Positions 3,001 through 39,984 are shown, counted from the stretch's first letter. The stretch is 64,000 nucleotides of DNA from Minisyncoccota bacterium (GCA_041666305.1 JBAYHD010000004.1:3946-67945), one strand, 5' to 3'. Numbers and translations: made by a program. Notes: a model not told the origin generated them from the sequence alone.

Positions 3001-4526
3001 GTGGCGAGTGCGATTTTCTCGCCGGTAGTGAGCGCCGGCAATACCGCGGCGATGGCTGCGGCGACCGGCGGCGAATGAGTTATCGATGTGACCATCGGCG
3101 TCCGTGCGAACGTCTCAAACGCGAGTGCAGTTGTGCCGAGTGCACCGAGATACGCGTCGTTCACCGCGATGCGCGCATTCCTGATGAACGGACTCGCATT
3201 GTTCGCAACTTCGCGCGTGCTCTTCGCGCTTTCGTATGCAAGATTGCCGGCGCCCATCACCGATGCGAGGTACGCGCTTGAAATGCTGTCCGTCGCCGCT
3301 ACAAAATGAGTGGCGCCCGCATATTCCACATCGAAGACCGCTTGAGCGATGGCGGGAGCGATGTGCGCAGGAGCTTCAGTCGCACCGAGGAACACTGCGG
3401 TAGCGAGGGCAGGCACGCGCTCGGCGGCGAGTGCGAGCGCGTTGCCCGTGTTGCCCAGGAGCGCGACTGTGGCGCGAGCGGAGGCGGGTGCCGCGGAGGC
3501 GAGGCCGTAGGAAACCGCCACATCAGCGCCGATGAACGCGTGCGTTGCGTCAATAACCGCCGTGCCGAGCGCGAGATTTGTGTTCGCTATGATTTCCGGC
3601 GTCGCTTTGAGCGTGTCGCGTGTGGTCGCAGCAAGCGCAAGAACTTTTTCACCTGCTGATCCGATGAGCGAGTGGTACGCAGCAAATGCGGCACCGATAC
3701 CGGCGTACGCATTTTCGCCGAGCGCGACATACGCATTCACGAGCGCGCTCGCCGTGCGCGACGGCGAGGTGAGCGTCGCATACGTATCAAACGCAAATGT
3801 CCGCACGTCGTCGGCAGTAACGACCGAACCGTTGATCGCCGACAACTTGGCGGTCCGGTCGCCAAGTCCTGATGCGATGCGAACATTTTTATTTTCATCG
3901 AGCGCCATGCGGAGCGAAGAAAGATCCGGTTCCGCAAGAACGGTTGATGCAATGTTCGCTGTTGTGAATTCGTTTGACGTCGCAACGCGCGGAGAAATTT
4001 TCGCCGCTTCATTTTTCGCCGTATCGATGTGCGCGACGATGCGCGAAGGAATGTCGCCAAACGTCTCAGTGAATCCGAATGCAACCGTGCGTGTCATCTC
4101 TGCCGCACTCGCCGCGAATTGCGGGATCGCTGACGCGTGCGCCGCGAACGCACCTGATGCAACTACGAGAAGCGCTACCGAAAGCGCGAGCGCATGCGAG
4201 CGGATTGAATTTGTTACGAGGCTGAACGGTTTTGGCACATAAAGCGGCGCTGTCAACGTCTTCGTTGCACGATGGATCATCGAGCGGTGCGCACGATACT
4301 CCTCCGCGCGTGCGCTCGCGAGCGCACGCGCGCGAACGATCTTGTGATCGCCCTGCTTATCGAGGAAACGCTCGAGCGAATCTTTTTCGATAAGCCAGTT
4401 GTGTCCGATTCTTTTTCCGGTAATTTTTCCGGAGCGAATGAGGCGAGAAAGATAATCCGAAGTGTACCCAAAAAATTCACCTGCCTCTCTTGTCGTAATC
4501 AAATTTTCTTTAGGTGGAAGGTTCAT
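1..4526 (-). CDS. Giant cell-surface protein, partial (>1500 aa; C-terminus beyond left edge): N-terminal HTH_17 excisionase-type DNA-binding domain, one TM helix, then a long Gly/Thr/Ser/Ala-rich repetitive extracellular region
   Basis: ATG at 4526-4524. Hand translation of the minus strand is open for at least 900 nt: MNLPPKENLITTREAGEFFGYTSDYLSRLIRSGKITGKRIGHNWLIEKDSLERFLDKQ (HTH_17-like), then the hydrophobic stretch ALALSVALLVVASGAFAAHA. All minus-strand ORFs the track lists in 1-4526 share one alternative frame and none is in this frame, which fits one uninterrupted ORF without an in-window stop. The motif GNVGIGTTSP recurs, seen as ccgat(g/a)ccgacgttgcc on the plus strand near 405, 860, 1280, 1585, 1990 and 2285. 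Confidence 0.6.
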   Translation of the reverse strand, partial: MNLPPKENLITTREAGEFFGYTSDYLSRLIRSGKITGKRIGHNWLIEKDSLERFLDKQGDHKIVRARALASARAEEYRAHRSMIHRATKTLTAPLYVPKPFSLVTNSIRSHALALSVALLVVASGAFAAHASAIPQFAASAAEMTRTVAFGFTETFGDIPSRIVAHIDTAKNEAAKISPRVATSNEFTTANIASTVLAEPDLSSLRMALDENKNVRIASGLGDRTAKLSAINGSVVTADDVRTFAFDTYATLTSPSRTASALVNAYVALGENAYAGIGAAFAAYHSLIGSAGEKVLALAATTRDTLKATPEIIANTNLALGTAVIDATHAFIGADVAVSYGLASAAPASARATVALLGNTGNALALAAERVPALATAVFLGATEAPAHIAPAIAQAVFDVEYAGATHFVAATDSISSAYLASVMGAGNLAYESAKSTREVANNASPFIRNARIAVNDAYLGALGTTALAFETFARTPMVTSITHSPPVAAAIAAVLPALTTGEKIALATYETIHDFINDAGRALAFLFTPPTVYPNFAPQNIATNATTTRVANSFTTIIQGVSPDYLDQSLAALRLDVFSAIAANTSRTIITRFSDSRGLSFQNIPSISADAGTFGSLTAGDTTVNGAFNETGNAVITGNFTTTGNATIGGTLTAGFLSISGLSSGEAISASYFSATSTTATSTFAGPLAAFNHVESPYFIATSTTATSTFAGRLAIGTTTPWGDGFFTVGTTTPLLYISSNTGRIGIGTSTPASIFEIYGTDALRIPVGTDAQRPAMALIGQVRFNTDAHQFEGYNDTGVWQGIGGVINPALTTKITAGTDDYLRFFTSSTERLTIDSAGNIGIATSSPFANLSLAGLAGGTQNLFAISTSTAGFATTTALTINSNGDLSLLNGANLTVGGNLTVSGSTSFTSAITGAITSTGTSTAPAFAASTRGFAGAPVFTFSSDLITGMWSPLASTLAFSTGGAERVRIDAAGNVGIGTTSPSRLLDVSTSHTNTTLTTNSNAAIAITNTSNTANNFSDLGFWTRDNAGTTALGSKISGVFTSHGGGAISSDIAFLASNVGTIAEKMRITGAGNVGIGTTSPYSLLSISNSAITAANTPLFTIASTTGGTATTTLMTVLANGNVGIGTANPTALLHSVVTVNASPLIAERTGANAVQFKVQVDSNNLSLYQKALGASSGWVSGAVNNSGYQISNSTSFGANDFFTILNTSGNVGIGTTSPYSMLSISNSASTAANTPLFTIASTTDGTSTSTLMTVLASGNVGMGNAIPESALHIKGDNTYAINAAAPALLTLETTTAGDTGVGPSILFGGQTGKAISKYGFGLIGGFMENATAGDYSGYLSFQTDSAVGLISEKMRLSSAGNLGIGTTSPYAALSVVGSTGVVADHYTATSTSVKSSFAGGIQLTNSSELCFTDATCMATAGLTASTLTAQADAVITADSDLNGSGDIAFKTGATDRFHIINSTGNVGISNTSPTYRLSVYSTDSTTNLFQVATTTNTAVLV
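380..2320 (-). repeat. Intragenic tandem protein repeats (~300-450 nt period) inside the giant surface protein gene
   Basis: Plus-strand segments 700-815 and 1120-1235 are ~80% identical. Shadow ORFs 673..942 and 1072..1266 encode near-identical peptides (VPIPTFP...VEAIVKSGVFAAV). The GNVGIGTT-encoding motif repeats at least 6 times. Confidence 0.55.
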
Positions 4527-30427: not shown

Positions 30428-31667
30428 ATCCTCGCCCGATCAAGGTGTATGCGTCTTTTGGGGGATCTTTTATTTTGGATGGCGTGACCTCGAAACGGCA
30501 GTCTTCTTTTTTAGCGAGTCGCACGGCATCAACGCCCTCATCGTCTCGATGCTTGGCACAATCATCTTTGAGCACCCATGTCCCATCGTCATTCCCCAGC
30601 CATGCATGCGTATCGCGATGCTGGTTTATCAAATAATAAAAACCTGCTTCGGTCATGCCGAGCCAATCCAAAAAAAGCGGAAGTGTTTTCGGAGCAACGG
30701 CATTGTAGCGAGCGACTAAATCAATTCCTTCTTCTCGAGTGAGTCGTTTCAAGCGTATCTCTCGACACGCATGATCGGTCACCTTCCCATATCCATACTT
30801 CAAGAACTTTATATAGTCATGGATATCCGAATAATGGAAACAATCAACATCATTGTAGGTGTCGAATGTCCGCGTTTGCGAAGCGCTCTCATATTCGTAT
30901 AGCCGGATCATCTCTTCGTGCTGAGCTTTCGAATCCCAGCGAATATAATTCCCCAGATAGATGCCGCGCACGCCGACTTTCTCTATTTCCTTGTCGTGCG
31001 GATACGCATACGGCGCGAGATCATCGGCCGTCACATTCATGGTCTCATCGACAAGATCCTCCGCCTCATATCCCATAAGGTCATGGTCCTTCCTGTATTT
31101 GCGCGTCATTTCAACTTCGTCCGTATGCGAGAACATACCAACTTGATCGAGCCCCTGGTGCGCGCCCCAAATTATGAGAGGTATCTTGAACCGAACCGCT
31201 ACCTGCACCGGAAACACCGTCTGCCCGGCGATGCAGTGCCAATACATGCTTCCCATTTTTCGTAGTGTCGCTCGTGTGACATTCTTCACCTTTTCCGGAC
31301 TTACGGTCATCGTCATGAGGTCGCACCCAAAGAGCGTGCGCAAATAGGCGAGATTCCGTATGCCCCGCTCAGTGTTGTACTGCTTGTTATAGGTGACAAG
31401 AAGCGGTCGCAACCCGAGTTTCTTCATCACGGTGTGGACGATAAAGTACGAATCACGCGCGCCGGAGACGGGAACCACGCAGTCATAATTATTCCCGGAA
31501 CGATTCTTGTACGAGGCCGTTATCTTTTTCAGATGTTCGAATCGCGCATTCCAGTCAAGCGAATCTTTTTCTTCATGCACTCTGCATCCACTGCACACGC
31601 CGTTCGCGTCGAACGTGAGGTCAAGCGGATGATTCGCCGGATAGAGGCATCGCGTGCAGTATTTCAT
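30414..31667 (-). CDS. N-acetyl sugar amidotransferase (WbpG/PseA-like, PP-loop ATPase family), paralogue 1
   Basis: N-terminal Cys cluster CTRCLYPANHP...GVCSGC; PP-loop DCVVPVSGARDS; 35-45% identical to the ORF at 33163..34278. Confidence 0.78.
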   Translation of the reverse strand: MKYCTRCLYPANHPLDLTFDANGVCSGCRVHEEKDSLDWNARFEHLKKITASYKNRSGNNYDCVVPVSGARDSYFIVHTVMKKLGLRPLLVTYNKQYNTERGIRNLAYLRTLFGCDLMTMTVSPEKVKNVTRATLRKMGSMYWHCIAGQTVFPVQVAVRFKIPLIIWGAHQGLDQVGMFSHTDEVEMTRKYRKDHDLMGYEAEDLVDETMNVTADDLAPYAYPHDKEIEKVGVRGIYLGNYIRWDSKAQHEEMIRLYEYESASQTRTFDTYNDVDCFHYSDIHDYIKFLKYGYGKVTDHACREIRLKRLTREEGIDLVARYNAVAPKTLPLFLDWLGMTEAGFYYLINQHRDTHAWLGNDDGTWVLKDDCAKHRDDEGVDAVRLAKKEDCRFEVTPSKIKDPPKDAYTLIGRGYVDV

Positions 31668-32614
31668 ATGACTTCTTTAGGGTGGTACTCAAAGCGTAAT
31701 TTCTCAAGAACCGCATCATCTTGCTTCGCGAGACGACCGGCATCATCGAATGTCGTATGTGCATAGGTGGCATACGTATCGAGCCGTATCGGGAAGTCCG
31801 ATTTCAAAAATGCCTTGGCAATCGTTACGCTGTGTTCCGTAAAATGGAAAGAATTACCCACAGCAACTGCATCCGCATGCCCATTCTGGAACGCATCTGC
31901 AATATGCTGCGGATGACCGCAACCGCCCGCCGCAACCACGGGAATATCCACGGCTTCCGAAACACGCCGGATAAGTTCCGTGTCGAACCCTTTCTTTGAC
32001 CCGTCGCGGTCAATGGAGCGTATAAAAATCTCGCCTGCCCCCTGCGCTGCACAGGATCTCGCAACTTCGACCGGGTCTTTCCCTGTTCCGGTTCGACCGG
32101 AGTCTGTGAACGCTTCATAGCGTCCTTCACCGACTTCTTTTGCGTCTATGGAAACAACGACGCACTGATTTCCGAAAATACGAGCGGCCTCATGTATGAG
32201 CTCCGGATGTTCGATAGCCGCGCGATTGATAACGACCTTGTCCGCACCCATCCGGATAAGCTGGCGTATCGTCTCGACCGAATTGATGCCGCCGCCAACG
32301 GTGAGTGGCACCATACTCTTGTCCGCGAGTCGTGCGAGGAGACCAAGGTCCAACGTTCGATTCTCACGACTTGCTTCGATATCAACCACCACTATCTCAT
32401 CAGCGCCCCATTGATTGAGGAACTCAACCGCTATTTCAGGCGAGCCGATGGGCAGATATTTTTTAAAGCCCACACTCTGGACGACGATGCCGTCTTTCAC
32501 AATGAGGCTGGCGATGATGCGTTTGGAGAGCATATTAATTTTTGGTGTGTTCCATAAAAGCGCGCAGGAGGCGCAGGCCGCTCGTCTGGCTTTTCTCGGG
32601 ATGGAACTGAACAC
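31664..32614 (-). CDS. HisF-like imidazole-glycerol-phosphate-synthase cyclase homologue (WbuZ-type, glycan acetamidino formation); likely start 32533
   Basis: IIASLIVKDGIVVQSVGF, DEIVVVDI, VPLTVGGGI, VAAGGCGHPQH. These are HisF (beta/alpha)8 motifs. Confidence 0.82.
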   Translation of the reverse strand: MFSSIPRKARRAACASCALLWNTPKINMLSKRIIASLIVKDGIVVQSVGFKKYLPIGSPEIAVEFLNQWGADEIVVVDIEASRENRTLDLGLLARLADKSMVPLTVGGGINSVETIRQLIRMGADKVVINRAAIEHPELIHEAARIFGNQCVVVSIDAKEVGEGRYEAFTDSGRTGTGKDPVEVARSCAAQGAGEIFIRSIDRDGSKKGFDTELIRRVSEAVDIPVVAAGGCGHPQHIADAFQNGHADAVAVGNSFHFTEHSVTIAKAFLKSDFPIRLDTYATYAHTTFDDAGRLAKQDDAVLEKLRFEYHPKEVI

Positions 32615-33350
32615 CGTAGATGTTGTCCTTTTGCACAGCGGCCGTTATCTCTTCGCCGTACGAACATGCCGCGGCGATATATTCTTTTTCCGTTTGGAAA
32701 TAAAAACTGTGGTCAAAATAGAAGCGTGCGCCCTTCGGCACGGACGCAAAGAGTGGTTCCGACCGGTACACCATAAGTTCATTCCAGCCCACATGCGGAA
32801 CGCGCACTGAGGCGGCAGGAATGCGCACCACATGCCCCGGAATGAATCCGAGTCCTTGATGCAATCCTCCCTCAATCGAATCTTCGGCGAGCACCTGCAT
32901 ACCGAGACAGATGCCCAGAAGCGGCTTTTTCTTTTCAACGACTTCTCTCCGCAAAACTTCAATAATGTCGCGCTTCTTAAGGTTCAGCATAGCTTCCTCA
33001 AAGGCGCCAACTCCCGGCAATATATATGCCCTCGCTTTTTGTATGTCCTCTTTTTTATGCGAAACGGCGTAGGAATAGCCGAGCCGCTCAAGCGCATTCG
33101 TGACCGAACGATGGTTTCCTACGCCATAATCAATGACGAGTACGTCAGGTTTTCGAGTAGTGTCAGACATACGCGTGTTTGAGCTGCCATTCTCCCGAGG
33201 CATTCTTCTCGAACAGTTCTTGATTTCGATAAGATTCAGCGACCTTCCAAAATTCTTTTTCTGAGATCTCCAGGTACTTGCAGAACCGGTGGATATATTC
33301 TGCGGAACATTTGCCATCATACTTTGCAACGAGCTCAAAGCCCTTCTCAC
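32535..33350 (-). CDS. HisH-like class I glutamine amidotransferase (WbuY-type); likely start 33170 (MSDTTRKPDVLVIDYG)
   Basis: VLVIDYGVGNHRSV; catalytic GICLGMQVL; HVGWN; FHPEKS. Confidence 0.82.
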   Translation of the reverse strand: MRRALSSLQSMMANVPQNISTGSASTWRSQKKNFGRSLNLIEIKNCSRRMPRENGSSNTRMSDTTRKPDVLVIDYGVGNHRSVTNALERLGYSYAVSHKKEDIQKARAYILPGVGAFEEAMLNLKKRDIIEVLRREVVEKKKPLLGICLGMQVLAEDSIEGGLHQGLGFIPGHVVRIPAASVRVPHVGWNELMVYRSEPLFASVPKGARFYFDHSFYFQTEKEYIAAACSYGEEITAAVQKDNIYGVQFHPEKSQTSGLRLLRAFMEHTKN

Positions 33351-34278
33351 GCGTCATCCGGCCATACCGAATGAGTTCGCATACTTCGTCAGTCACTTTA
33401 CCGAACCCGTATTTAAAGTATTTGATCATTTGATTGACGAACACGAAATCCTCGTCAAGCGCTTCGAACGGATGGAGCGCTCCGCGTTCAAGTGGCGTAT
33501 CGGTGCGCACCTCGAGCCCGTGCGATATGGAAAAAGCGGCGTTATCTACTTTGGTAAAATTGGGCCAAAAATACCCGAGGTACACTACTTGCACATTTGC
33601 CCACTCCGTTTCTTCACCCGAGGGATATGTATAGGGAATAAGATGTTGTGTCGTGACATCGTCGTTCAAATACAGAGCACTCCCTCCTCCTATGGTATTG
33701 GCGTTCCGTATATTATTACCGTTCCAATCAAGCGATCCGACGGTCAAATCTCCCATCTGCGTCGCGGCATTTTCCCCCAGAAATACGAGTGGGATCTTAT
33801 ATGCAATAGATAGCCTTGGCAGTGTTGCGTACAGTGCGGTCTCGGTGGACTTGGCCAAGTTGCCATATTCAAGAAAACCTTTTCGCATGAGTTTTTTCCA
33901 TGTTTGCGGGTCAGGCATAACATTAATGACATCGAACCCGAGCGAGATAAGATTAGAAATATTGTACGCTCCAAGGTCCGTGATTTGTTCAGGAGGATAA
34001 TTACATGAAACGAGAAGCGGTTTGAGCCCGAGAGAATCACGTGCATACATCGCTTGGCGCGTACTGTCCTTACCACCAGAAATGCCGATGATGCAATCGT
34101 AATCTGAATGATTGTTCTTTCTTGTCCGCTCAATTATATTCTCGAGCTCCTGATGACGGACACTCCAATCAACATCCTTAAGTTGTTCCCTATAGTGACA
34201 CGCCGGGCACACACCTTCGGCGTCAAATCGTATCCCTGGTCGCGTATCTGGTTGAACACATTTTTTACAATACTTCAT
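33163..34278 (-). CDS. N-acetyl sugar amidotransferase (WbpG/PseA-like), paralogue 2
   Basis: CKKCVQPDTRPGIRFDAEGVCPAC; PP-loop DCIIGISGGKDS. Confidence 0.78.
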   Translation of the reverse strand: MKYCKKCVQPDTRPGIRFDAEGVCPACHYREQLKDVDWSVRHQELENIIERTRKNNHSDYDCIIGISGGKDSTRQAMYARDSLGLKPLLVSCNYPPEQITDLGAYNISNLISLGFDVINVMPDPQTWKKLMRKGFLEYGNLAKSTETALYATLPRLSIAYKIPLVFLGENAATQMGDLTVGSLDWNGNNIRNANTIGGGSALYLNDDVTTQHLIPYTYPSGEETEWANVQVVYLGYFWPNFTKVDNAAFSISHGLEVRTDTPLERGALHPFEALDEDFVFVNQMIKYFKYGFGKVTDEVCELIRYGRMTREKGFELVAKYDGKCSAEYIHRFCKYLEISEKEFWKVAESYRNQELFEKNASGEWQLKHAYV

Positions 34279-34321: not shown

Positions 34322-36202
34322 TCAAGATTTTACGTTACTGACGCGCCGAATGAGCTCTGCGACACGCTCGAACGATCTTCCATCAAGCACAAAATTCTCT
34401 TGTACAAAAGCATCGGCGCGCGCTACGAGCACCGCACGATTATTCGGGGCAGCAAGATGCTTCAGATGCGCATGTAATTCCTCCTTCGTGCGTGCCATCA
34501 AAACCGCGCCGGACTCCCAAAACTCCTTAAAGTCATTATCCAAGACTTTAGGTACATACATAATAACTGATTTGTGCATAAGCAATGCCTCCAGTATTAC
34601 GGTAGATGTACCTGAAAGAACAATGTCCGAAAGAGCCAGAAGTACTTGCAGATCTTCGTGGACGAGTAGACGACTTTCTTTACCAAACAACCGATGTATC
34701 TCCTGCTCATAAAAAGATCTACGAAAGCTCGGCCTGGGTCTGAAGAGTATTTGTAACGAGAGATCTCGTTGTGCCTCTGCAACATCTTCGAAAATTCGCT
34801 GCACCTCGTAACTCGTATGGTTTCCGTATTCGAGCAACGAATAGGAGACCTCTGGCATCCCCCACATGACCGTGCAACGTCCCTTTTTTAATCCCAGGCG
34901 CTGCTGCAGATCAATAATTTTCTCCTTTGGCAGGGCTGATGCATAGCGGTCGAAGCGTGGCGAACCTACGGACACTAACCGTTGCGACGCAATCCCCCAC
35001 GACTCGTACATACCGTTGATAAGCGGCCCATACGAGGCGAGGTAACGACTATTGAGCCGGCAGTGCACGAGCGTCTTTTCATTGTTAACAAGCGCATGCT
35101 CAAGCTCAATGGAGGGTATGTCCATATTCTCCGCAACGCGGGCGACAAGATTGCTGTACCCTTTAATCGAAGTACGGAGGAGTACGCAGTTGACCTTGTA
35201 GCGAGCAAAGAGACGCTTGGTGTTCTCTATAGTTGCTATGGTATCCTCGGCATATTCTTTGACTATACAGTCGAGTGCCTGCCGCACTACCGGCCACAGC
35301 GATATATTGTTGTAGACAAAACCCTTGCTTATTTCTGGTACCTCGCCGAGAGCATCCCATCGTTCCGCCATGGTCCTTGCGCGAGTTCGCGCGAGTTCGC
35401 GGACATGCGTGTCCACAAAATCAAGACGGTGACAAAAACGCGCGCGCGCGCGCCATGCGAGGACAGGTAGCATGGTGCGCATCTCTTGCCGTCGCGACAT
35501 AATAAGCTCGACATCCGGCATTGTGCTGATAAAAGGCTCTACCCGATACCATGGATCGGTGGCAAAAAGAACGATGGGGCGTGGGCGGTGCCATGCATCA
35601 ACGAGGGCATTCCACACCACACTTATTGCTCGTGCGAACCACTGCTCTAAAGCTATGCGCAAAACGCTTAAGAACACTGCGCTCTGTTGTACGAGCGGCG
35701 TACGGATAACCTCGACGGTCACATTGTGCTTCTTCGCCAAGAGTCGCACCACATCTTCAACGACACGCGCTCTAAACACGGCGACTGGATCGGCGGTTGG
35801 CAACATGCCAGATTTTTCGAAGACGCACGCGTTAATCGCATTGGGATATGCCGTGAACACCTGATCGAGCATGGCCGCCCAATAAAACACTGTCTGTATG
35901 TAGTAAAGGATTGCGGGCTCATATTGCTCGCCAAGTTTAATTCCGTCGTATTCAAAAAAGGCCGTCTCGGACGCGGTGTACCAGCCTGAAGCAAGAGCGC
36001 GTGTGCGCTCTAGCAGTGCACGGTCGCCATCGGGCGAGACGGCAATAGTAACAAGCGAGATAAACGGTATGTCGTGTTTCTGCAAATCCAATTCAATCTC
36101 ATAGTCAAGGGCAACAACTATTGGAGCATCTCGCCCATCTAAAAGTTCCCGCACATAGGGAACCTGTTCCGGTTTGGATATAAAAAAAAGAGTCGTATTC
36201 AT
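34322..36202 (-). CDS. Large hypothetical protein (626 aa) with GT-B-like C-terminal half (TagF/KpsS/PseG-like?); candidate glycan transferase or hydrolase
   Basis: C-terminal VLSGTSTVILEALLMHKSVIMYVP resembles the GT-B nucleotide-binding C-terminal Rossmann. No definitive motif. Confidence 0.35.
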   Translation of the reverse strand: MNTTLFFISKPEQVPYVRELLDGRDAPIVVALDYEIELDLQKHDIPFISLVTIAVSPDGDRALLERTRALASGWYTASETAFFEYDGIKLGEQYEPAILYYIQTVFYWAAMLDQVFTAYPNAINACVFEKSGMLPTADPVAVFRARVVEDVVRLLAKKHNVTVEVIRTPLVQQSAVFLSVLRIALEQWFARAISVVWNALVDAWHRPRPIVLFATDPWYRVEPFISTMPDVELIMSRRQEMRTMLPVLAWRARARFCHRLDFVDTHVRELARTRARTMAERWDALGEVPEISKGFVYNNISLWPVVRQALDCIVKEYAEDTIATIENTKRLFARYKVNCVLLRTSIKGYSNLVARVAENMDIPSIELEHALVNNEKTLVHCRLNSRYLASYGPLINGMYESWGIASQRLVSVGSPRFDRYASALPKEKIIDLQQRLGLKKGRCTVMWGMPEVSYSLLEYGNHTSYEVQRIFEDVAEAQRDLSLQILFRPRPSFRRSFYEQEIHRLFGKESRLLVHEDLQVLLALSDIVLSGTSTVILEALLMHKSVIMYVPKVLDNDFKEFWESGAVLMARTKEELHAHLKHLAAPNNRAVLVARADAFVQENFVLDGRSFERVAELIRRVSNVKS

Positions 36203-36229
36203 GCTATGTATCGGTATCCAGCAGCAGTA

Positions 36230-36922
36230 TTATTTTTTTCTGAGAAGAAACCACATTTGCCTTGTTTTCTTATCACGCTCGACCGTTTTCAGTTCCTCTC
36301 GGTCTAGATTTACGAGAGTGAATACTTGCTCTATTTTTTCTATATCGAAAAATGGATACACCGCCTGTGACATATCCTGAAAATTTCTATAGGTTGACAC
36401 ATATCTGTTTTGCAAAAATTCAGAATATCCATCAAAAGTGAAAGTATCAAGATACGAAGTCGGGACCTTCATGATCAAGACCCCTTCGGGATTCAGGAGT
36501 TTGTGGCACTCATCCAGATAGGTGGTGAACTTGTCGTCAGTAAGGTACTGGACCAGGCCGATTGATACTATGGTGTCATATTTTTTGTCGCCATATTCGC
36601 TCCACATCTCATCCGTCCCGCATGCTTTGGCGTGTATATTTTCAATGTGTTCCTCCGCGATTTTCTTATTCAAAATCTTTATATTGTTTGATGCAAAATC
36701 AAAACAATCAAATTGTATCTTTGGATGCAGTTTCGATAGTTCTATGCAGTGCCTTCCGGTGCCACACCCGGTGTCTAACAGAGCACCCTCGCGCATATGG
36801 ACATGTACCCACGCCACTTCGATGAGATCGCCTTTTAAAGACAGCGCCTCGCCATACCGCCATGGATCATGGTCGGTAAGTTTGTCAGCCCTCTCATTAA
36901 ATATTTGTTTTAAGTCAGTCAT
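36230..36922 (-). CDS. Class I SAM-dependent methyltransferase
   Basis: LLDTGCGTGRHCIEL, TIVSIGLVQYLTDD, PEGVLIMKVP. Confidence 0.75.
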   Translation of the reverse strand: MTDLKQIFNERADKLTDHDPWRYGEALSLKGDLIEVAWVHVHMREGALLDTGCGTGRHCIELSKLHPKIQFDCFDFASNNIKILNKKIAEEHIENIHAKACGTDEMWSEYGDKKYDTIVSIGLVQYLTDDKFTTYLDECHKLLNPEGVLIMKVPTSYLDTFTFDGYSEFLQNRYVSTYRNFQDMSQAVYPFFDIEKIEQVFTLVNLDREELKTVERDKKTRQMWFLLRKK

Positions 36923-36924
36923 GG

Positions 36925-38190
36925 TTATCCCAAGAAGGTGAACTGGTCCTGCTGATGAGGCAAATATTGCAAGGTGACCCCTTCTTTGTCTTCCTTCACT
37001 TTGGTATTTGCAAAAAACAGATGCTTGAAATCGGTCCGCTCCCCACTGCGCAACCCCGGCACCGGCAAGACCCGCACACCCAGAGGCTTTTTCAGAACGA
37101 TGGAGGTCGACAGCACATCCATAATCAGTCCGACTACTGCCGTATCCTTTACTGCGCCGGAGAGGGGGACCATATCAACCCCACAACCGCAGGTCGTAGA
37201 CAGGAGCTTCAGAAAATTCAAGTCAAATGCCCCTTCTTCATATCGCTTGCTCAAATAGGTATCCTCTAAAACTGAATACATGATCCCGTTAAATCCGGTT
37301 GTTTTTATTTTTGACTCTTTCACTATGAATTTCAAGATATTCGTCAGATAGGTATTTATGAAGTGTGTGCCATTGGACCCAAATTCAAAAACAGATTCTC
37401 CACGAGAGCGGCCGATCTGTCCTATTTCTTCAATAAGAGAAACAATGCTCTGATCCTCTAGCGGGTATGGATACGGAGCCAGCGATATATCCATACCCCC
37501 GTATGCGACTCCGGAATCTTTTTCGAACACGAGGCATGCATCCTGTATCTTTTGTAATTCGGATACAAGAGAGCTGATCAGGAGCTCCCGGAGAGAGTCC
37601 AGGTCCAAGCGATTATTATTTTTAACCAGCTCGGTAAGATACCCTACCATTTCCACCCCGACGATAAACTCGGCATCGCGTTCCGCACACGCAAACGGAA
37701 AGAAGGGGGATTTGATTTTGCCTGAGGACACCCCGACCCTAAAATTATCTATGGGATTCTGCGTATTTTTGATAATAAAATCGGCAACCTTTGTTATCGC
37801 TTTTATATGCAATTTCCCCTCGTTGACGGGAACAAAATTTATAAATATGTTGTCCTTGAGCTTGCTCGCGTATGCAGCCAGAGCCAAGGAATCCGCATAT
37901 GCGTGGCCTGAGACATCAAAGGGAAGGCCGATGCCCCAAAAATTATATTTTTCCGCCAATCCGACATAGTTCGAAATTAACTGCTCTGTTTTTTTGCTGT
38001 CGCCGGGGCCGATCAAGTCAGCGAGTATTCGGTACGTTCGCAGTGAATAACCACTTTTTTCGAAGCTGGCCAGGTTAGTGGTAAATTTTTTCAGCAGGTT
38101 CTCGTCATTGGTCGAAAGAAAACTTTGTAAGGTGATGGTCCTGATTTTTATATTCATGGGTAGAGAAGAGAATCGAGTGAAATATTGCAA
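36925..38190 (-). CDS. Hypothetical protein (about 410 aa; likely start 38157 overlapping the upstream stop as ATGA) in a low-GC islet
   Basis: Long ORF, AT-rich codon usage unlike the flanks, no recognisable catalytic motif. Should be compared with DUF711/UPF0210 models. Confidence 0.4.
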   Translation of the reverse strand: MQYFTRFSSLPMNIKIRTITLQSFLSTNDENLLKKFTTNLASFEKSGYSLRTYRILADLIGPGDSKKTEQLISNYVGLAEKYNFWGIGLPFDVSGHAYADSLALAAYASKLKDNIFINFVPVNEGKLHIKAITKVADFIIKNTQNPIDNFRVGVSSGKIKSPFFPFACAERDAEFIVGVEMVGYLTELVKNNNRLDLDSLRELLISSLVSELQKIQDACLVFEKDSGVAYGGMDISLAPYPYPLEDQSIVSLIEEIGQIGRSRGESVFEFGSNGTHFINTYLTNILKFIVKESKIKTTGFNGIMYSVLEDTYLSKRYEEGAFDLNFLKLLSTTCGCGVDMVPLSGAVKDTAVVGLIMDVLSTSIVLKKPLGVRVLPVPGLRSGERTDFKHLFFANTKVKEDKEGVTLQYLPHQQDQFTFLG

Positions 38191-39260
38191 TCTGTTATTT
38201 CTACAGGAAACTTGTGTTTTACCGTCTTATAAGGATAGATATCATCTTGATCAACTCTGTTTCTGATTGATTCGACACTTACTTCGTAGTTTTTTCTTAA
38301 CGAGAAGAATTCTACATCAGAATAATCAAAAACGATCACGGGAACCTTCTTTAGTCCTAATTCTTTTGAGACTTCCATTCTATGCTGCCCGTCCATAACC
38401 AGTCCGTTCGGGTCTACGCAAATCGGCCTCGTCCATATCTTTTCATCAAGGATCTTCTTTTTTAGCCACGCAACTCTTTTTTTAGAAAAAGATTCTATAT
38501 GTTTCAACTTAGAAGTATCGAAGTAAATCGTTGCGCCGATGTTTTTTAACATAGATTCATATTCCGACTGTGTGTTGAACGTATACCTCTTTCCTGATAC
38601 TATTTTGCATGTTAAGTGGAATTTTTCCTTATCGAATAGAGGCTCAAAATAATAAAAGTCCAATCCTCCTTTAGCCAAAGAAGACGCCTCCGCGACAAAT
38701 GTCGATACATCATCGCTGGAAATCCAAAGCGCGCCAGTCATATCAAAATACTGATCATCAATGGGCCCATTTCTCTTTCCAATGATAAAATCTTCGAAAA
38801 GATTATTTTTCACTCTAACGATCCCATTAGATTTATTCTGGTCAGCTTGGCCACCCAGAAACATAACGGAGTCCTTGCTTAAAGAGGCCCCAATCTCACG
38901 GAAAGCAAGGTCATCGTATACGCAATCACCCTCCAAGATCAAAACTCCGTCTTTTGCACCCTTGGCTCCAAGAACGGCAGACCAGATGTTCTTATCACTT
39001 GCAAATTTGTCGTTGACTACATATGAGATCCCGTAGCCTGCCGTATGGTTCTCTATTTGCTCTCGGTTATATCCCACAACGACTTTAATTTTTGCATCTG
39101 GAATGTATCGATTGACTTGACCTATCGCTCTTGAAATAACCGATTGGTTATCAACCGCAGAAAGACATTTGGGTTCTTTGGAATTGAACCTGGTACCCAT
39201 GCCTGCGGCGAGTATCACTACGGTCTTCATATTAGAATCTTGCGAACAAGGCAACGACAC
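38154..39260 (-). CDS. Fusion: LicC-like sugar-phosphate nucleotidyltransferase (N-terminal) plus ParB/Srx-like domain (C-terminal); likely start 39230 (MKTVVILAAG)
   Basis: N-terminal VVILAAGMGTRF...PKCL (NTP_transferase/LicC signature). C-terminal PICVDPNGLVMDGQHRMEVSKELGLKKVPVIVFDY matches the ParB N-terminal/Srx DGxHR core. Confidence 0.65.
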   Translation of the reverse strand: MSLPCSQDSNMKTVVILAAGMGTRFNSKEPKCLSAVDNQSVISRAIGQVNRYIPDAKIKVVVGYNREQIENHTAGYGISYVVNDKFASDKNIWSAVLGAKGAKDGVLILEGDCVYDDLAFREIGASLSKDSVMFLGGQADQNKSNGIVRVKNNLFEDFIIGKRNGPIDDQYFDMTGALWISSDDVSTFVAEASSLAKGGLDFYYFEPLFDKEKFHLTCKIVSGKRYTFNTQSEYESMLKNIGATIYFDTSKLKHIESFSKKRVAWLKKKILDEKIWTRPICVDPNGLVMDGQHRMEVSKELGLKKVPVIVFDYSDVEFFSLRKNYEVSVESIRNRVDQDDIYPYKTVKHKFPVEITDCNISLDSLLYP

Positions 39261-39984
39261 GAAGAAGCATCAGGGCAAATGGCCCGGTGCGGGACTTTGA
39301 TGTAACATACTTGTGATGGTTTTCATCGCGGATGGGTGTTCTCCAGTCGCCGTAGTACCACTCCATATATCGCTCCGGTGCGGCAAATGTCCTATACTGC
39401 TCACCGCGCAATGTAACACTGCTTTCGCCGTGCATAAAGTTATCGGGATAATATGACCACTTTCGGTACCGCTTGTCGCCCATCTTAAAAAATCCTACTA
39501 CCTCAAATATTGACCCGTGCTTTTCTGTCCGTATTCTGAAATCTATCTTGCTTTGTTTATACGCTTTTATCTGATAGCCGGCTTTGACAAAAGCTTCTAT
39601 AAGTTGGGCCTGTTTTGGATACACATCCTCTACTCGCACATCAATATCAACATCACCGTCCCACGCGATAAAATCACCGTCCCTCACAATACCAAGGAGG
39701 GTACCCCCCGCTAAATAATACGGAATGGACAATGTATCAAGAAACGCGCAGACCTCTTTTAAATCTTTGGCACGCAGGGCTAACTCCTCTTCAGTCCTCG
39801 TGCGCATAGACTCTCGTATTTCCCGCTCGGAACGCTCAAAAACTATGCGCGATGGCACAAAAAAAACGACCACTTTCTGTATGATTTTATTGAGAAAATA
39901 ACGCATCGTATGGAGGTTATTATAAGCTGTAACTGCTTTTCTCGCTCCTAGGTTGCTCTGGCCGATGCCTGTGTAGTGGCACAC
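39232..39984 (-). CDS. LicD-family phospho-alcohol (phosphocholine/ribitol-phosphate-type) transferase; likely start ~39906
   Basis: YYLAGGTLLGIVRDGDFIAWDGDVDIDV matches the LicD/fukutin nucleotidyltransferase-fold motif. Confidence 0.72.
   Translation of the reverse strand: MCHYTGIGQSNLGARKAVTAYNNLHTMRYFLNKIIQKVVVFFVPSRIVFERSEREIRESMRTRTEEELALRAKDLKEVCAFLDTLSIPYYLAGGTLLGIVRDGDFIAWDGDVDIDVRVEDVYPKQAQLIEAFVKAGYQIKAYKQSKIDFRIRTEKHGSIFEVVGFFKMGDKRYRKWSYYPDNFMHGESSVTLRGEQYRTFAAPERYMEWYYGDWRTPIRDENHHKYVTSKSRTGPFALMLLRVVALFARF

What the first reader, a model, noticed from the sequence alone, without database searches (positions are those of the whole stretch)
36230..39984. Low-GC islet carrying a phospho-alcohol decoration module (LicC-like-ParB fusion plus LicD)
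Base composition drops to roughly 35-40% GC by eye across 36230-39260, against the ~55-60% flanks. The islet holds a methyltransferase, an unassigned ~410-aa protein, a LicC-type nucleotidyltransferase and, at its edge, a LicD transferase. The genes are tightly coupled: ATGA overlap at 38154-38157 and a 1-nt gap at 39230-39232. LicC/LicD pairs install phosphocholine or related phospho-alcohols (ribitol-P, glycerol-P) on glycans. The composition suggests recent acquisition of the module into the island. The 410-aa protein may supply the activated head group, as a kinase or synthase analogue.
Basis: partly seen in the sequence, partly recalled or inferred. Interest (0 to 1): 0.7.

Follow-up and report, generated by a model that had tools for sequence, protein, structure and literature searches.

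The report
Phospho-amino-acid glycan decoration module with DUF711
A mildly AT-rich gene block in a candidate-phyla bacterium's sugar-coat locus most likely makes a CDP-activated, methylated, probably serine-like head group and attaches it to a surface glycan through a phosphate bridge; it also gives a first functional setting for DUF711, a protein family of unknown function that accompanies this gene set in bacteria, archaea and some viral contigs.

Summary
The region 36230-39984 is the lowest-GC stretch of the window, at 43.5% against a 51.5% mean, not 35-40% against 55-60%.

Gene calls and couplings are correct:
- LicD-like transferase
- LicC-like cytidylyltransferase fused to a ParB/Srx domain
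- a 410-aa DUF711 protein
- a SAM methyltransferase
- a TagF-like phosphotransferase directly downstream

The ParB-like domain resembles the free-serine kinases SerK and SbnI. Its invariant Glu aligns with the SerK position mutated in deposited structures, and the DGxHR and KTxKH motifs are kept. It is therefore the likely kinase, not DUF711.

The kinase, cytidylyltransferase, DUF711 and methyltransferase recur together in both search directions. Of 80 loci with this DUF711 subtype (75 distinct genome loci plus 5 earlier look-ups), 68 carry the kinase. Of 54 kinase loci with enough flank, 52 carry DUF711. They usually sit with a TagF-like, LicD or sulfatase-like transferase. About half also carry a two-cysteine amino-acid racemase, including an 82%-identical sister locus.

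The closest known system is the C. difficile FtaABCD pathway (CDP-N-methylthreonine), which has no DUF711 and a different phosphorylating enzyme.

Best reading: a new variant of a CDP-amino-acid head-group pathway. The DUF711 step is unknown. The low-GC signature is shared by relatives, so acquisition is not recent.

The parts
39232..39906 (-). LicD-family phosphotransferase, 224 aa from the ATG at 39906. The longest ORF, from a GTG, reaches 39984.
   Evidence: Pfam LicD scores 1.3e-11. Residues 75-122 align to the FKRP catalytic region 286-333, including WDxDVD. Relatives-227 aa. Translation from 39906 starts MRYF. Its stop lies one base from the next start codon.
38535..39230 (-). N-terminal LicC-like nucleotidyltransferase domain of the 358-aa fusion protein (aa 1 to about 232). 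The inferred reaction is CTP + phospho-X giving CDP-X + PPi.
   Evidence: Pfam NTP_transf_3 scores 1.6e-9. PDB LicC 1jyk scores 1.2e-6. The AF2 model has pLDDT 95. Foldseek's top hits are LicC (TM 0.82) and then PntC. The G-x-G-x-R...K and E-x-D signature residues are invariant in 61 homologues.
38154..38534 (-). C-terminal ParB/Srx-fold domain of the fusion (aa about 233-358, plus the stop codon). It is SerK/SbnI-like and is the inferred small-molecule (hydroxy-amino-acid) kinase.
   Evidence: NCBIfam SerK scores 1e-8 and SbnI 2.4e-6. The E of the 'LKHIE' motif aligns with the SerK position that is E, Q or A in the three deposited SerK sequences. DGQHR aligns with DGHHR. The C-terminal YPYKTVKHKFP aligns with SerK YSPKTTRHVLP. 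E246, D280, G281, H283, K335, T336 and K338 are invariant.
36925..38157 (-). DUF711 (UPF0210) protein of 410 aa, of the 'CGCG' subtype. It is an obligate but functionally unassigned partner of the kinase and cytidylyltransferase.
36230..36922 (-). Class I SAM-dependent methyltransferase of 230 aa. It is inferred to methylate the activated head group.
   Evidence: Pfam Methyltransf_25/12/31/11 score 1e-10 to 1e-14, and Methyltransf_PK scores 1.8e-9. A methyltransferase follows DUF711 in 47 of 54 kinase-anchored loci, and is fused to DUF711 in several proteins.
34322..36202 (-). TagF-like (Glyphos_transf) protein of 626 aa. It is a second candidate CDP-X:glycan phosphotransferase and lies outside the low-GC stretch.
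   Evidence: Pfam Glyphos_transf scores 2.5e-6 over residues 399-618. It holds the same position in relatives L085 and L086. TagF-like genes accompany the cassette in 44 of 82 long loci. The window's copy is not detectably orthologous to the proteobacterial ones.

Best explanation
The low-GC block is the core of a co-transcribed 'post-glycosylation modification' module on the minus strand. Gene order is: LicD-like transferase, LicC-like cytidylyltransferase fused to a SerK/SbnI-like kinase domain, DUF711, SAM methyltransferase, TagF-like phosphotransferase.

Proposed mechanism:
1. The ParB/Srx-fold domain phosphorylates the hydroxyl of a small hydroxy-amino acid. Serine is the best guess; threonine or a close analogue is possible.
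2. The LicC-like domain condenses the phospho-amino acid with CTP to give a CDP-amino acid.
3. The methyltransferase and the DUF711 enzyme tailor this head group. Methylation is expected. The DUF711 reaction is unknown. It is probably not decarboxylation, and it may act on the free amino acid or on the CDP conjugate.
4. The LicD-like and/or TagF-like enzyme transfers the phospho head group onto a sugar hydroxyl of the glycan made by the surrounding island, releasing CMP.

Shown here: domain identities, conserved catalytic motifs, operon coupling, and strong two-way gene linkage across phyla. Inferred: substrates, nucleotide used, order of steps, acceptor.

The block was probably acquired from a lower-GC relative before the window's lineage split from its 82-90% identical relatives.
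For: DOMAINS. SerK-type catalytic Glu, DGxHR and KTxKH are conserved in 61 homologues.

LINKAGE FROM THE DUF711 SIDE. Of the 80 loci held at that point (75 distinct GTDB loci plus 5 earlier look-ups, some duplicates), 68 have the SerK-like domain and 63 the nucleotidyltransferase directly upstream, and 47 have a methyltransferase downstream.

LINKAGE FROM THE KINASE SIDE. Of 54 metagenome loci with at least 2.5 kb downstream, 52 have DUF711 and 47 a methyltransferase.

FUSIONS. NT-kinase, NT-kinase-NT (about 606 aa) and DUF711-methyltransferase fusions occur.

TRANSFERASES. 68 of 82 long loci carry a TagF-like (44), LicD (16) or sulfatase-like (10) candidate phosphotransferase.

AMINO-ACID CHARACTER.
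- A two-Cys Asp-racemase-type gene is present in 37 of the 80 loci searched and in 25 of 54 metagenome loci. It scores 2e-49 on the cysteate racemase model, with both catalytic Cys aligned.
- It is inserted between the methyltransferase and TagF-like genes in the 82%-identical sister locus.
- Other members of this DUF711 subtype sit beside ATP-grasp or AMP-binding-like amino-acid-ligase-type genes.

PRECEDENT. In FtaABCD, CDP-threonine is N-methylated by FtaC as the CDP conjugate and transferred by the TagF-like FtaD (PMC10714395; bioRxiv 10.64898/2026.02.12.704994).

DUF711-LESS VARIANTS. L116 and L138 keep kinase-NT + MT + LicD. DUF711 is therefore a tailoring or supply step, not part of activation or transfer.
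Against: - No biochemistry exists for any component.
- The kinase domain scores far below the SerK equivalog cut-off (34.7 against 380 bits). It also lacks the central third of SerK.
- The closest structural neighbours of the cytidylyltransferase domain, LicC and PntC, take amino-alcohol-type substrates (phosphocholine, aminoethylphosphonate), not amino acids.
- The window itself has no racemase. The amino-acid argument therefore rests on relatives.
- The window's methyltransferase and TagF-like protein are only distantly related, or not detectably related, to those of proteobacterial cassettes. Products may differ between cassette types.
- DUF711 has no assigned chemistry, and all characterised proteins of its fold are radical enzymes.
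Confidence: 0.5

Rival explanations
1. De novo phosphocholine or N-methyl-phosphoethanolamine pathway. Serine is phosphorylated by the SerK-like domain. DUF711 decarboxylates phosphoserine (or CDP-serine) to the ethanolamine level. The methyltransferase N-methylates it one to three times. The LicC-like domain makes CDP-choline, and LicD installs phosphocholine.
For: - LicC is the best sequence and structure match of the nucleotidyltransferase domain.
- A LicD transferase is tightly coupled.
- The methyltransferase is conserved and is fused to DUF711 in some proteins.
- No LicA- or LicB-like hit appeared among the genes scanned.
- SAM synthetase and AdoHcy hydrolase lie next to the cassette in L084.
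- Some enzymes of the DUF711 fold class are decarboxylases, though radical ones.
Against: - A true two-Cys amino-acid racemase is embedded in about half of the cassettes, and in a sister locus whose NT-kinase fusion is 82% identical to the window's. Racemising a centre that is then destroyed by decarboxylation would be futile.
- DUF711-less cassettes keep the methyltransferase and LicD.
- DUF711 has no cofactor-binding or decarboxylase signature, and no glycyl-radical domain or activase is conserved nearby.
Confidence: 0.17
2. Classical Lic-type salvage. Exogenous choline or ethanolamine is phosphorylated (by the ParB-like domain or by DUF711), cytidylylated and transferred by LicD. The methyltransferase belongs to sugar modification in the surrounding island.
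For: LicC and LicD similarities. JGI annotates several homologues as 'choline kinase'. Many other methyltransferases are present in the island.
Against: - No LicA-type kinase or LicB permease hit appeared among the genes scanned.
- The methyltransferase is positionally conserved next to DUF711 across phyla, and is sometimes fused to it.
- The kinase domain keeps SerK-specific motifs.
- A racemase in the cassette is unexplained.
Confidence: 0.06
3. Teichoic-acid-like polyol-phosphate module. The nucleotidyltransferase makes CDP-glycerol or CDP-ribitol. TagF-like and LicD (FKRP-like) enzymes add or polymerise polyol phosphate. DUF711 and the ParB-like domain supply or phosphorylate the polyol.
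For: A TagF-like gene is adjacent in the window, and TagF-like genes sit in 44 of 82 cassette loci. LicD aligns best to FKRP, a ribitol-phosphate transferase. There is a weak IspD/TarI-type hit.
Against: - No TarJ-type reductase or TagD-type cytidylyltransferase is in the block.
- The SerK-type kinase motifs, amino-acid racemase and conserved methyltransferase are not expected for polyol phosphates.
- TagF-like enzymes also transfer amino-acid phosphates, as FtaD does (bioRxiv 10.64898/2026.02.12.704994).
Confidence: 0.08
4. The GC dip marks a recent horizontal insertion specific to this genome.
For: The block is the lowest-GC stretch of the window. The same four genes occur in a 31%-GC Patescibacteria genome, in a different neighbourhood.
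Against: Relatives at 90% and 82% protein identity have the block at the same site, between the same GT9-like and TagF-like genes, with the same dip. No tRNA, integrase or flanking repeats were found.
Confidence: 0.1

Closest known systems
FtaABCD (CD0241-CD0244), the Type A flagellin post-glycosylation modification pathway of Clostridioides difficile, and PA1088-PA1091 of Pseudomonas aeruginosa (PMC10714395; PMC11833859; bioRxiv 10.64898/2026.02.12.704994)
   Same: The logic is the same: make a phospho-hydroxy-amino acid, cytidylylate it to a CDP-amino acid, methylate it with a small class I SAM methyltransferase, and transfer the phospho-amino acid to a sugar with a TagF-like enzyme. The GT + TagF-like fusions upstream of many proteobacterial cassettes recall PA1091.
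   Different: - The phosphorylating enzyme here is a ParB/Srx-fold SerK-like kinase, not a HAD ThrH-like phosphotransferase, and it is usually fused to the cytidylyltransferase.
- An obligate DUF711 protein has no Fta counterpart.
- LicD and sulfatase-like transferases are alternative partners.
- A racemase is often present.
- The context is polysaccharide loci (GTs, Wzy, flippase), not flagellin.
Lic1 phosphocholine pathway (LicA kinase, LicB permease, LicC cytidylyltransferase, LicD transferase)
   Same: The LicC-like fold is the top structural hit. A LicD-family transferase is immediately adjacent. The CDP-activated head group is transferred as a phosphodiester.
   Different: No LicA (protein-kinase-like fold) or LicB was found. 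The kinase is of an unrelated fold. The DUF711, methyltransferase and, in relatives, racemase are extra.
Free serine kinases SerK (Thermococcus kodakarensis, PMC5120207; PDB 5x0b) and SbnI (Staphylococcus aureus)
   Same: ParB/Srx fold, an aligned catalytic Glu, the DGxHR motif and a C-terminal K-T-x-[KR]-H motif.
   Different: The domain here is about 125 aa, against 242-254 aa. It lacks the region corresponding to about SerK 109-192, scores far below the equivalog cut-offs, and is fused to a cytidylyltransferase. The product feeds glycan decoration, not cysteine or siderophore synthesis.
UPF0210/DUF711 proteins such as SP0239 (PDB 2ha9), normally paired with an ACT-domain protein
   Different: This is a distinct subtype with a CGCG motif and 16-17% identity to SP0239. 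It has no ACT partner and is embedded in kinase/cytidylyltransferase or ATP-grasp glycan cassettes.
MeOPN pathway of Campylobacter jejuni (Cj1415-Cj1418: glutamine kinase, CTP:phosphoglutamine cytidylyltransferase, CDP-glutamine hydrolase). This item rests on my own knowledge and on discussion in the 2026 bioRxiv paper.
   Same: A kinase is followed by an NTP_transf_3 cytidylyltransferase. A further enzyme reworks the CDP-amino acid, and methyltransferases act before the group is attached to a capsule.
   Different: The kinase and hydrolase families are different. There is no DUF711. The end product there is a phosphoramidate, which is not indicated here.

Membership tests
Lic1 phosphocholine system | LicC-type CTP:phospho-base cytidylyltransferase | tested here: met
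   PDB LicC 1jyk scores 1.2e-6. Foldseek's top hit is LicC with TM 0.82-0.83. Signature residues are invariant. Use of CTP is not shown.
Lic1 phosphocholine system | LicD-family phosphotransferase with a DxD motif | tested here: met
   Pfam LicD scores 45.5 bits against a cut-off of 22.6, over the N-terminal part only. The WDGDVD region aligns to FKRP WDYDVD.
Lic1 phosphocholine system | LicA choline kinase (protein-kinase-like fold) and LicB choline permease in the locus | tested here: not met
   No choline-kinase (LicA-type) or permease hit appeared among the 19 ORFs Pfam-scanned between about 24 and 48 kb. The rest of the window was not scanned.
FtaABCD-type CDP-amino-acid modification pathway | ThrH-like HAD phosphotransferase (FtaA) that makes the phospho-amino acid | tested here: not met
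   No HAD or PSP-like gene is in the block. A SerK-like ParB/Srx domain occupies this role.
FtaABCD-type CDP-amino-acid modification pathway | Nucleotidyltransferase, small class I SAM methyltransferase and TagF-like phosphotransferase encoded together | tested here: met
   All three family types are adjacent in the window. Orthology to FtaB, FtaC and FtaD was not tested because no sequences were available.
FtaABCD-type CDP-amino-acid modification pathway | [quoted passage not shown] | not testable with these tools
   Needs metabolite MS and glycan analysis.
SerK/SbnI free serine kinases | ParB/Srx fold with DGxHR and the catalytic Glu (SerK E30) | tested here: met
   The alignment places the invariant Glu on the position that is E, Q or A in the deposited SerK variants, and places DGQHR on DGHHR. 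These residues are invariant in 61 homologues.
SerK/SbnI free serine kinases | Full-length architecture and equivalog-level similarity | tested here: not met
   34.7 bits against a cut-off of 380 (SerK), and 27.1 against 350 (SbnI). The domain is about 125 aa and lacks the SerK middle region.
SerK/SbnI free serine kinases | Phosphorylation of free L-serine | not testable with these tools
   Needs an enzyme assay.
DUF711 / UPF0210 | Match to Pfam PF05167 and to the SP0239 fold | tested here: met
DUF711 / UPF0210 | Adjacent ACT-domain (UPF0237) partner, as in the canonical pair | tested here: not met
   The window's neighbours are a cytidylyltransferase-kinase fusion and a methyltransferase. The canonical pair was seen on an Enterococcus plasmid.
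Glycyl radical enzymes / ribonucleotide reductases (fold relatives of DUF711) | Ten-stranded barrel plus a radical source: a glycyl-radical domain with activase, B12 or an R2 subunit | tested here: inconclusive
Phosphonate tailoring (Ppm/PntC/LicD) | PEP mutase and phosphonopyruvate decarboxylase near the cytidylyltransferase | tested here: not met
   PntC is the second-best structural hit. No Ppm or Ppd hit appeared among the scanned ORFs or in the recurrent cassette partners.

The most novel reading that the evidence does not exclude
The cassette of SerK-like kinase, LicC-like cytidylyltransferase and DUF711 (± methyltransferase ± racemase) is an undescribed, widely distributed pathway. It would make a new CDP-activated head group, a D- or L-amino acid phosphate tailored by DUF711, for decorating glycans in bacteria, archaea and possibly phage-infected cells. 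In this reading DUF711 is a non-radical descendant of the RNR/glycyl-radical-enzyme barrel that catalyses a new reaction on an amino acid or a CDP-amino acid. This would give the UPF0210 family its first function.
Probability: 0.4. Interest if true: 0.8.

Novelty: new variant of a known kind. Interest (0 to 1): 0.62.

Why it matters
- CDP-amino acids were detected in cells only in 2026, in the C. difficile flagellin pathway. This cassette suggests that such chemistry is much more widespread, with a different kinase solution. It occurs in Patescibacteria, Proteobacteria, Bacteroidota, Firmicutes, Cyanobacteria, archaea and viral contigs.
- It places DUF711/UPF0210 in a defined and testable biochemical context. 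This family has had a crystal structure since 2006, an RNR/GRE-like fold and no known function.
- Cultured carriers are available for experiments, for example Castellaniella denitrificans CCUG 39541, Pseudomonas mangrovi TC11 and Roseovarius litoreus DSM 28249.
- Presence or absence of the racemase between near-identical loci hints at stereochemical (D/L) surface variation.
- For candidate-phyla bacteria, which have minimal metabolism, a self-contained head-group module speaks to how they build surface glycans.

Tried and rejected
Rejected: the fold is an RNR/GRE barrel, and a SerK-like kinase domain is already fused to the cytidylyltransferase.
- DUF711 as a phosphoserine decarboxylase leading to phosphocholine (my first hypothesis). 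Down-weighted because of the embedded two-Cys racemase and the DUF711-less MT + LicD cassettes.
- Literature on DUF711, UPF0210 and PF05167. Only fold-classification mentions were found, and no function.
- The PNAS 2025 ParB-fold survey has no match to any 'nucleotidyl' or 'cytidylyl' term, so it does not appear to describe this fusion.
- Search for the proteobacterial cassette in 5,426 complete E. coli genomes, hoping to link it to a known O-antigen structure. No match.
- Plasmid search. It returned only canonical ACT + DUF711 pairs, which were uninformative.
- Foldseek against PDB for DUF711. Only SP0239 was significant.
- PDB matches of the methyltransferase do not discriminate N- from O-methylation.
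- tRNA genes and flanking repeats as insertion scars. None were found.
- Direct comparison with FtaB, FtaC and FtaD sequences was not possible with the collections available.
- The SbnI (JBC 2018) paper could not be retrieved, and a literature search did not surface the SerK structural paper.

Full report
OBSERVATION

The composition dip exists but is smaller than described. The stretch 36230-39984 is 43.5% GC, and the window as a whole is 51.5%. Among all 3755-nt windows, the lowest starts at 36151 (43.4%, about 2.9 SD below the mean of 51.1%). Within the stretch, 500-nt windows range from 38% to 51%, and the flanks are about 50-55%.

All genes are on the minus strand. They are:
- a LicD-like protein at 39232-39906 (the GTG ORF reaches 39984);
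- a 358-aa fusion protein at 38154-39230;
- a 410-aa DUF711 protein at 36925-38157;
- a 230-aa SAM methyltransferase at 36230-36922.

Public gene calls on the source contig give the same lengths. One source names that contig's copy of the DUF711 protein as a Candidatus Paceibacterota MAG protein. The ATGA overlap (38157-38154) and the one-base gap (39231) are real.

Directly downstream, with a 27-nt gap, lies a 626-aa TagF-like protein at 34322-36202. Around it sits a large glycan island. It contains GT4 and GT9-like transferases, several methyltransferases, WbuX/HisH/HisF, a YdjC-GtrA protein, epimerases and a C-methyltransferase.

WHAT THE PARTS ARE

The fusion protein. Its N-terminal two thirds are a LicC-type nucleotidyltransferase. 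LicC (1jyk) is both the best sequence hit in the PDB and the best Foldseek hit of a pLDDT-95 model (TM 0.82). The phosphonate cytidylyltransferase PntC comes next.

Its C-terminal 125 residues are a ParB/Srx-fold domain of the small-molecule-kinase kind. NCBIfam SerK scores 1e-8 and SbnI 2.4e-6. In the alignment to SerK structures, the invariant Glu of the motif LKHIE falls on the position that reads E, Q or A in the three deposited SerK sequences, which are evidently active-site mutants. DGQHR matches DGHHR. The C-terminal YPYKTVKHKFP matches SerK YSPKTTRHVLP. These residues are invariant or nearly so in 61 homologues.

The domain is a shortened SerK and scores far below the equivalog cut-offs. 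It works like a SerK-type kinase but is not a member of that equivalog.

The LicD-like protein. It passes the motif test. Residues 75-122 align with the FKRP catalytic region, including WDxDVD.

No paper in the library assigns DUF711 a function.

THE CASSETTE IS CONSERVED AND WIDESPREAD

Starting from DUF711. A scan of one genome per species returned 75 loci from many phyla. Of the 80 loci then held (these 75 plus 5 earlier look-ups, some of them duplicates), 68 carry the SerK-like domain and 63 a nucleotidyltransferase immediately upstream. 47 have a methyltransferase immediately downstream.

Starting from the kinase motifs. Among metagenome loci with at least 2.5 kb of downstream sequence, 52 of 54 have DUF711 and 47 a methyltransferase.

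Two layouts exist:
- Type A: fused NT-kinase, DUF711, MT. It is found in the window, other Patescibacteria, some archaea and marine contigs.
- Type B: NT, kinase, a second NT, DUF711, MT, racemase. It is found in Proteobacteria, Bacteroidota, Firmicutes, Prochlorococcus and others.

Gene fusions link NT-kinase, NT-kinase-NT and DUF711-MT.

Of 82 long loci, 68 also carry a candidate phosphotransferase. 44 have a TagF-like gene, often fused to a GT25 or GT61 domain. 16 have LicD. 10 have a soluble sulfatase-family protein.

Two loci, L116 and L138, lack DUF711 but keep NT-kinase + MT + LicD. The DUF711 profile finds only 573 clusters (at 50% identity) with E below 1e-30 among 1.84 billion representatives, so the family is small.

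WHAT THE HEAD GROUP IS LIKELY TO BE

Thirty-seven of the 80 loci searched and 25 of the 54 metagenome loci contain an Asp/Glu-racemase-family gene inside the cassette. Both catalytic cysteines align with those of Pyrococcus aspartate racemase. The best NCBIfam model is cysteate racemase CuyB (2e-49; 168 bits against a cut-off of 190).

A sister locus whose NT-kinase fusion is 82% identical to the window's has this racemase inserted between the methyltransferase and the TagF-like gene. The window and the 90%-identical relative lack it.

A PLP-independent racemase acting inside the pathway implies that the head group keeps an alpha-carbon bearing a carboxylate. This points to an amino acid with a small anionic or polar side chain. 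Together with the SerK-like kinase, it makes serine or phosphoserine, or a close analogue such as threonine, the best guess. It also argues against decarboxylation to ethanolamine or choline.

In loci without the kinase and NT, the same DUF711 subtype lies beside ATP-grasp ('sugar-transfer associated' and L-amino-acid-ligase type) or AMP-binding-like genes within glycosyltransferase clusters. This is also consistent with amino-acid chemistry. The canonical DUF711 is paired with an ACT domain, a typical amino-acid sensor.

CLOSEST KNOWN SYSTEM

The literature search for CDP-amino acids led to the C. difficile Type A flagellin modification:
- FtaA (ThrH-like) makes phosphothreonine.
- FtaB makes CDP-threonine.
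- FtaC N-methylates the CDP conjugate.
- The TagF-like FtaD transfers N-methylthreonine phosphate to GlcNAc.

P. aeruginosa PA1088-PA1091 install N,N-dimethylthreonine phosphate on rhamnose, using a GT + TagF-like fusion protein (PMC10714395, PMC11833859, bioRxiv 10.64898/2026.02.12.704994).

The window's module has the same logic. It differs in four ways. It uses an unrelated kinase. It adds DUF711. It uses LicD as an additional or alternative transferase. It sits in polysaccharide loci rather than flagellar loci. Those papers do not mention DUF711 or ParB-like kinases.

MECHANISM PROPOSED

1. The kinase domain phosphorylates the hydroxy-amino acid.
2. The LicC-like domain forms the CDP conjugate.
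3. The methyltransferase, and DUF711 at an adjacent step or as a supplier of the amino acid, tailor it.
4. LicD-like and/or TagF-like enzymes transfer the phospho head group to the glycan.

Domain identity, motif conservation and linkage are shown. Substrates, the nucleotide used, the order of steps and the acceptor are inferred. I put 0.5 on this general model and roughly 0.35 on serine specifically.

The main rival is a de novo phosphocholine or N-methyl-phosphoethanolamine route with DUF711 as the decarboxylase. It keeps about 0.17 because of the LicC and LicD resemblance and the SAM-recycling genes beside one cassette.

EVOLUTION OF THE ISLET

The same four genes show the same GC dip in the relatives at 90% and 82% identity. 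In L085 they are 40-46% against 50-55% for the flanks. In L086 they are 42-47% against 49-54%. In both they lie at the same site, between the GT9-like and TagF-like genes.

A more distant Patescibacteria genome (31% GC overall) carries the block at 23-27% GC in a different neighbourhood. There is no tRNA gene in the window, and the flanks carry no repeat above chance level.

The block was therefore probably acquired horizontally from a lower-GC donor, but before these lineages diverged. It is not recent.

LIMITS

- The window's methyltransferase is only 20% identical to the type B methyltransferase. Its TagF-like protein shows no significant pairwise similarity to proteobacterial ones. Cassette types may therefore make different products.
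- The role of the second nucleotidyltransferase in type B is unexplained, as is the reaction catalysed by DUF711.
- Homology to FtaB, FtaC and FtaD could not be tested.

VERDICT

The finding is real and its annotation is largely right. The interpretation needs revision in three ways: the kinase is the ParB-like domain, the head group is amino-acid-like, and the acquisition is older than proposed. The block is a new variant of the CDP-activated head-group decoration systems, with an uncharacterised, tightly linked DUF711 enzyme at its centre.

Noticed in passing
L086:12171-12917 and L087:10087-10833, against window 36203-36229: Loci whose NT-kinase fusion is 82% identical to the window's carry a 248-aa two-Cys Asp/Glu-type racemase between the methyltransferase and the TagF-like gene. 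The window and the 90%-identical relative L085 have only a 27-nt spacer there. This is a possible D/L switch of the head group between near-identical loci.
   Followed up: partly
contig of P0030 (no DNA held); L088-L090 (IMG/VR): The cassette (GT2, sulfatase-like, NT-kinase, DUF711, MT) lies on a contig that also encodes the T4-type major capsid protein Gp23, gp25 baseplate, a clamp-loader-like AAA protein and dUTPase. Three IMG/VR viral contigs, one of 335 kb, also encode the DUF711 subtype.
   Followed up: partly
L084:1-4874; L083:2793-4900: In marine type A loci the cassette is preceded by a sulfotransferase-sulfatase fusion (731 aa), or by separate sulfatase-like and faint sulfotransferase-like genes. 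In L084 it is also preceded by SAM synthetase and AdoHcy hydrolase. This may mean that sulfur chemistry or heavy SAM use is linked to the pathway.
   Followed up: no
L010, L024, L069, L072: The same CGCG-type DUF711 occurs without the kinase or cytidylyltransferase. It sits next to ATP-grasp ('sugar-transfer associated' PF14397, or L-amino-acid-ligase type) or AMP-binding-like genes inside glycosyltransferase clusters.
   Followed up: partly
L042:7219-7944 and equivalents; L014, L016, L021 (about 606-aa proteins): Type B cassettes encode a second MobA-like nucleotidyltransferase between the kinase and DUF711. In some archaea the lengths suggest that NT, kinase and the second NT are fused into one protein. 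The role of the second NT is unexplained, and it is absent from the window.
   Followed up: partly
window 31664-34278: A WbuX (N-acetyl sugar amidotransferase, 319 bits), HisH-like and HisF-like trio lies just downstream of the TagF-like gene. This is the gene set associated with acetamidino-sugar formation in O-antigen loci, so the island probably makes an amidino-modified sugar.
   Followed up: no
window 39649-39690: A 21-nt imperfect tandem repeat (81% identical) inside the LicD-like gene encodes IVRDGDF/IAWDGDV. This is a duplicated heptapeptide that spans the catalytic DxD region.
   Followed up: no
window 1-4000: The first 4 kb of the window are about 60% GC with a strong positive GC skew (0.13-0.18), unlike the rest of the window.
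   Followed up: no
L031:3994-5838, L048:2691-5756, L042:4272-6101: Upstream of many proteobacterial cassettes are large multidomain proteins that combine GT25 or GT61, a TagF-like domain and sometimes a C-terminal methyltransferase. They recall P. aeruginosa FgtA (PA1091) and chain-terminating enzymes of ABC-transporter-dependent O-antigen pathways.
   Followed up: no
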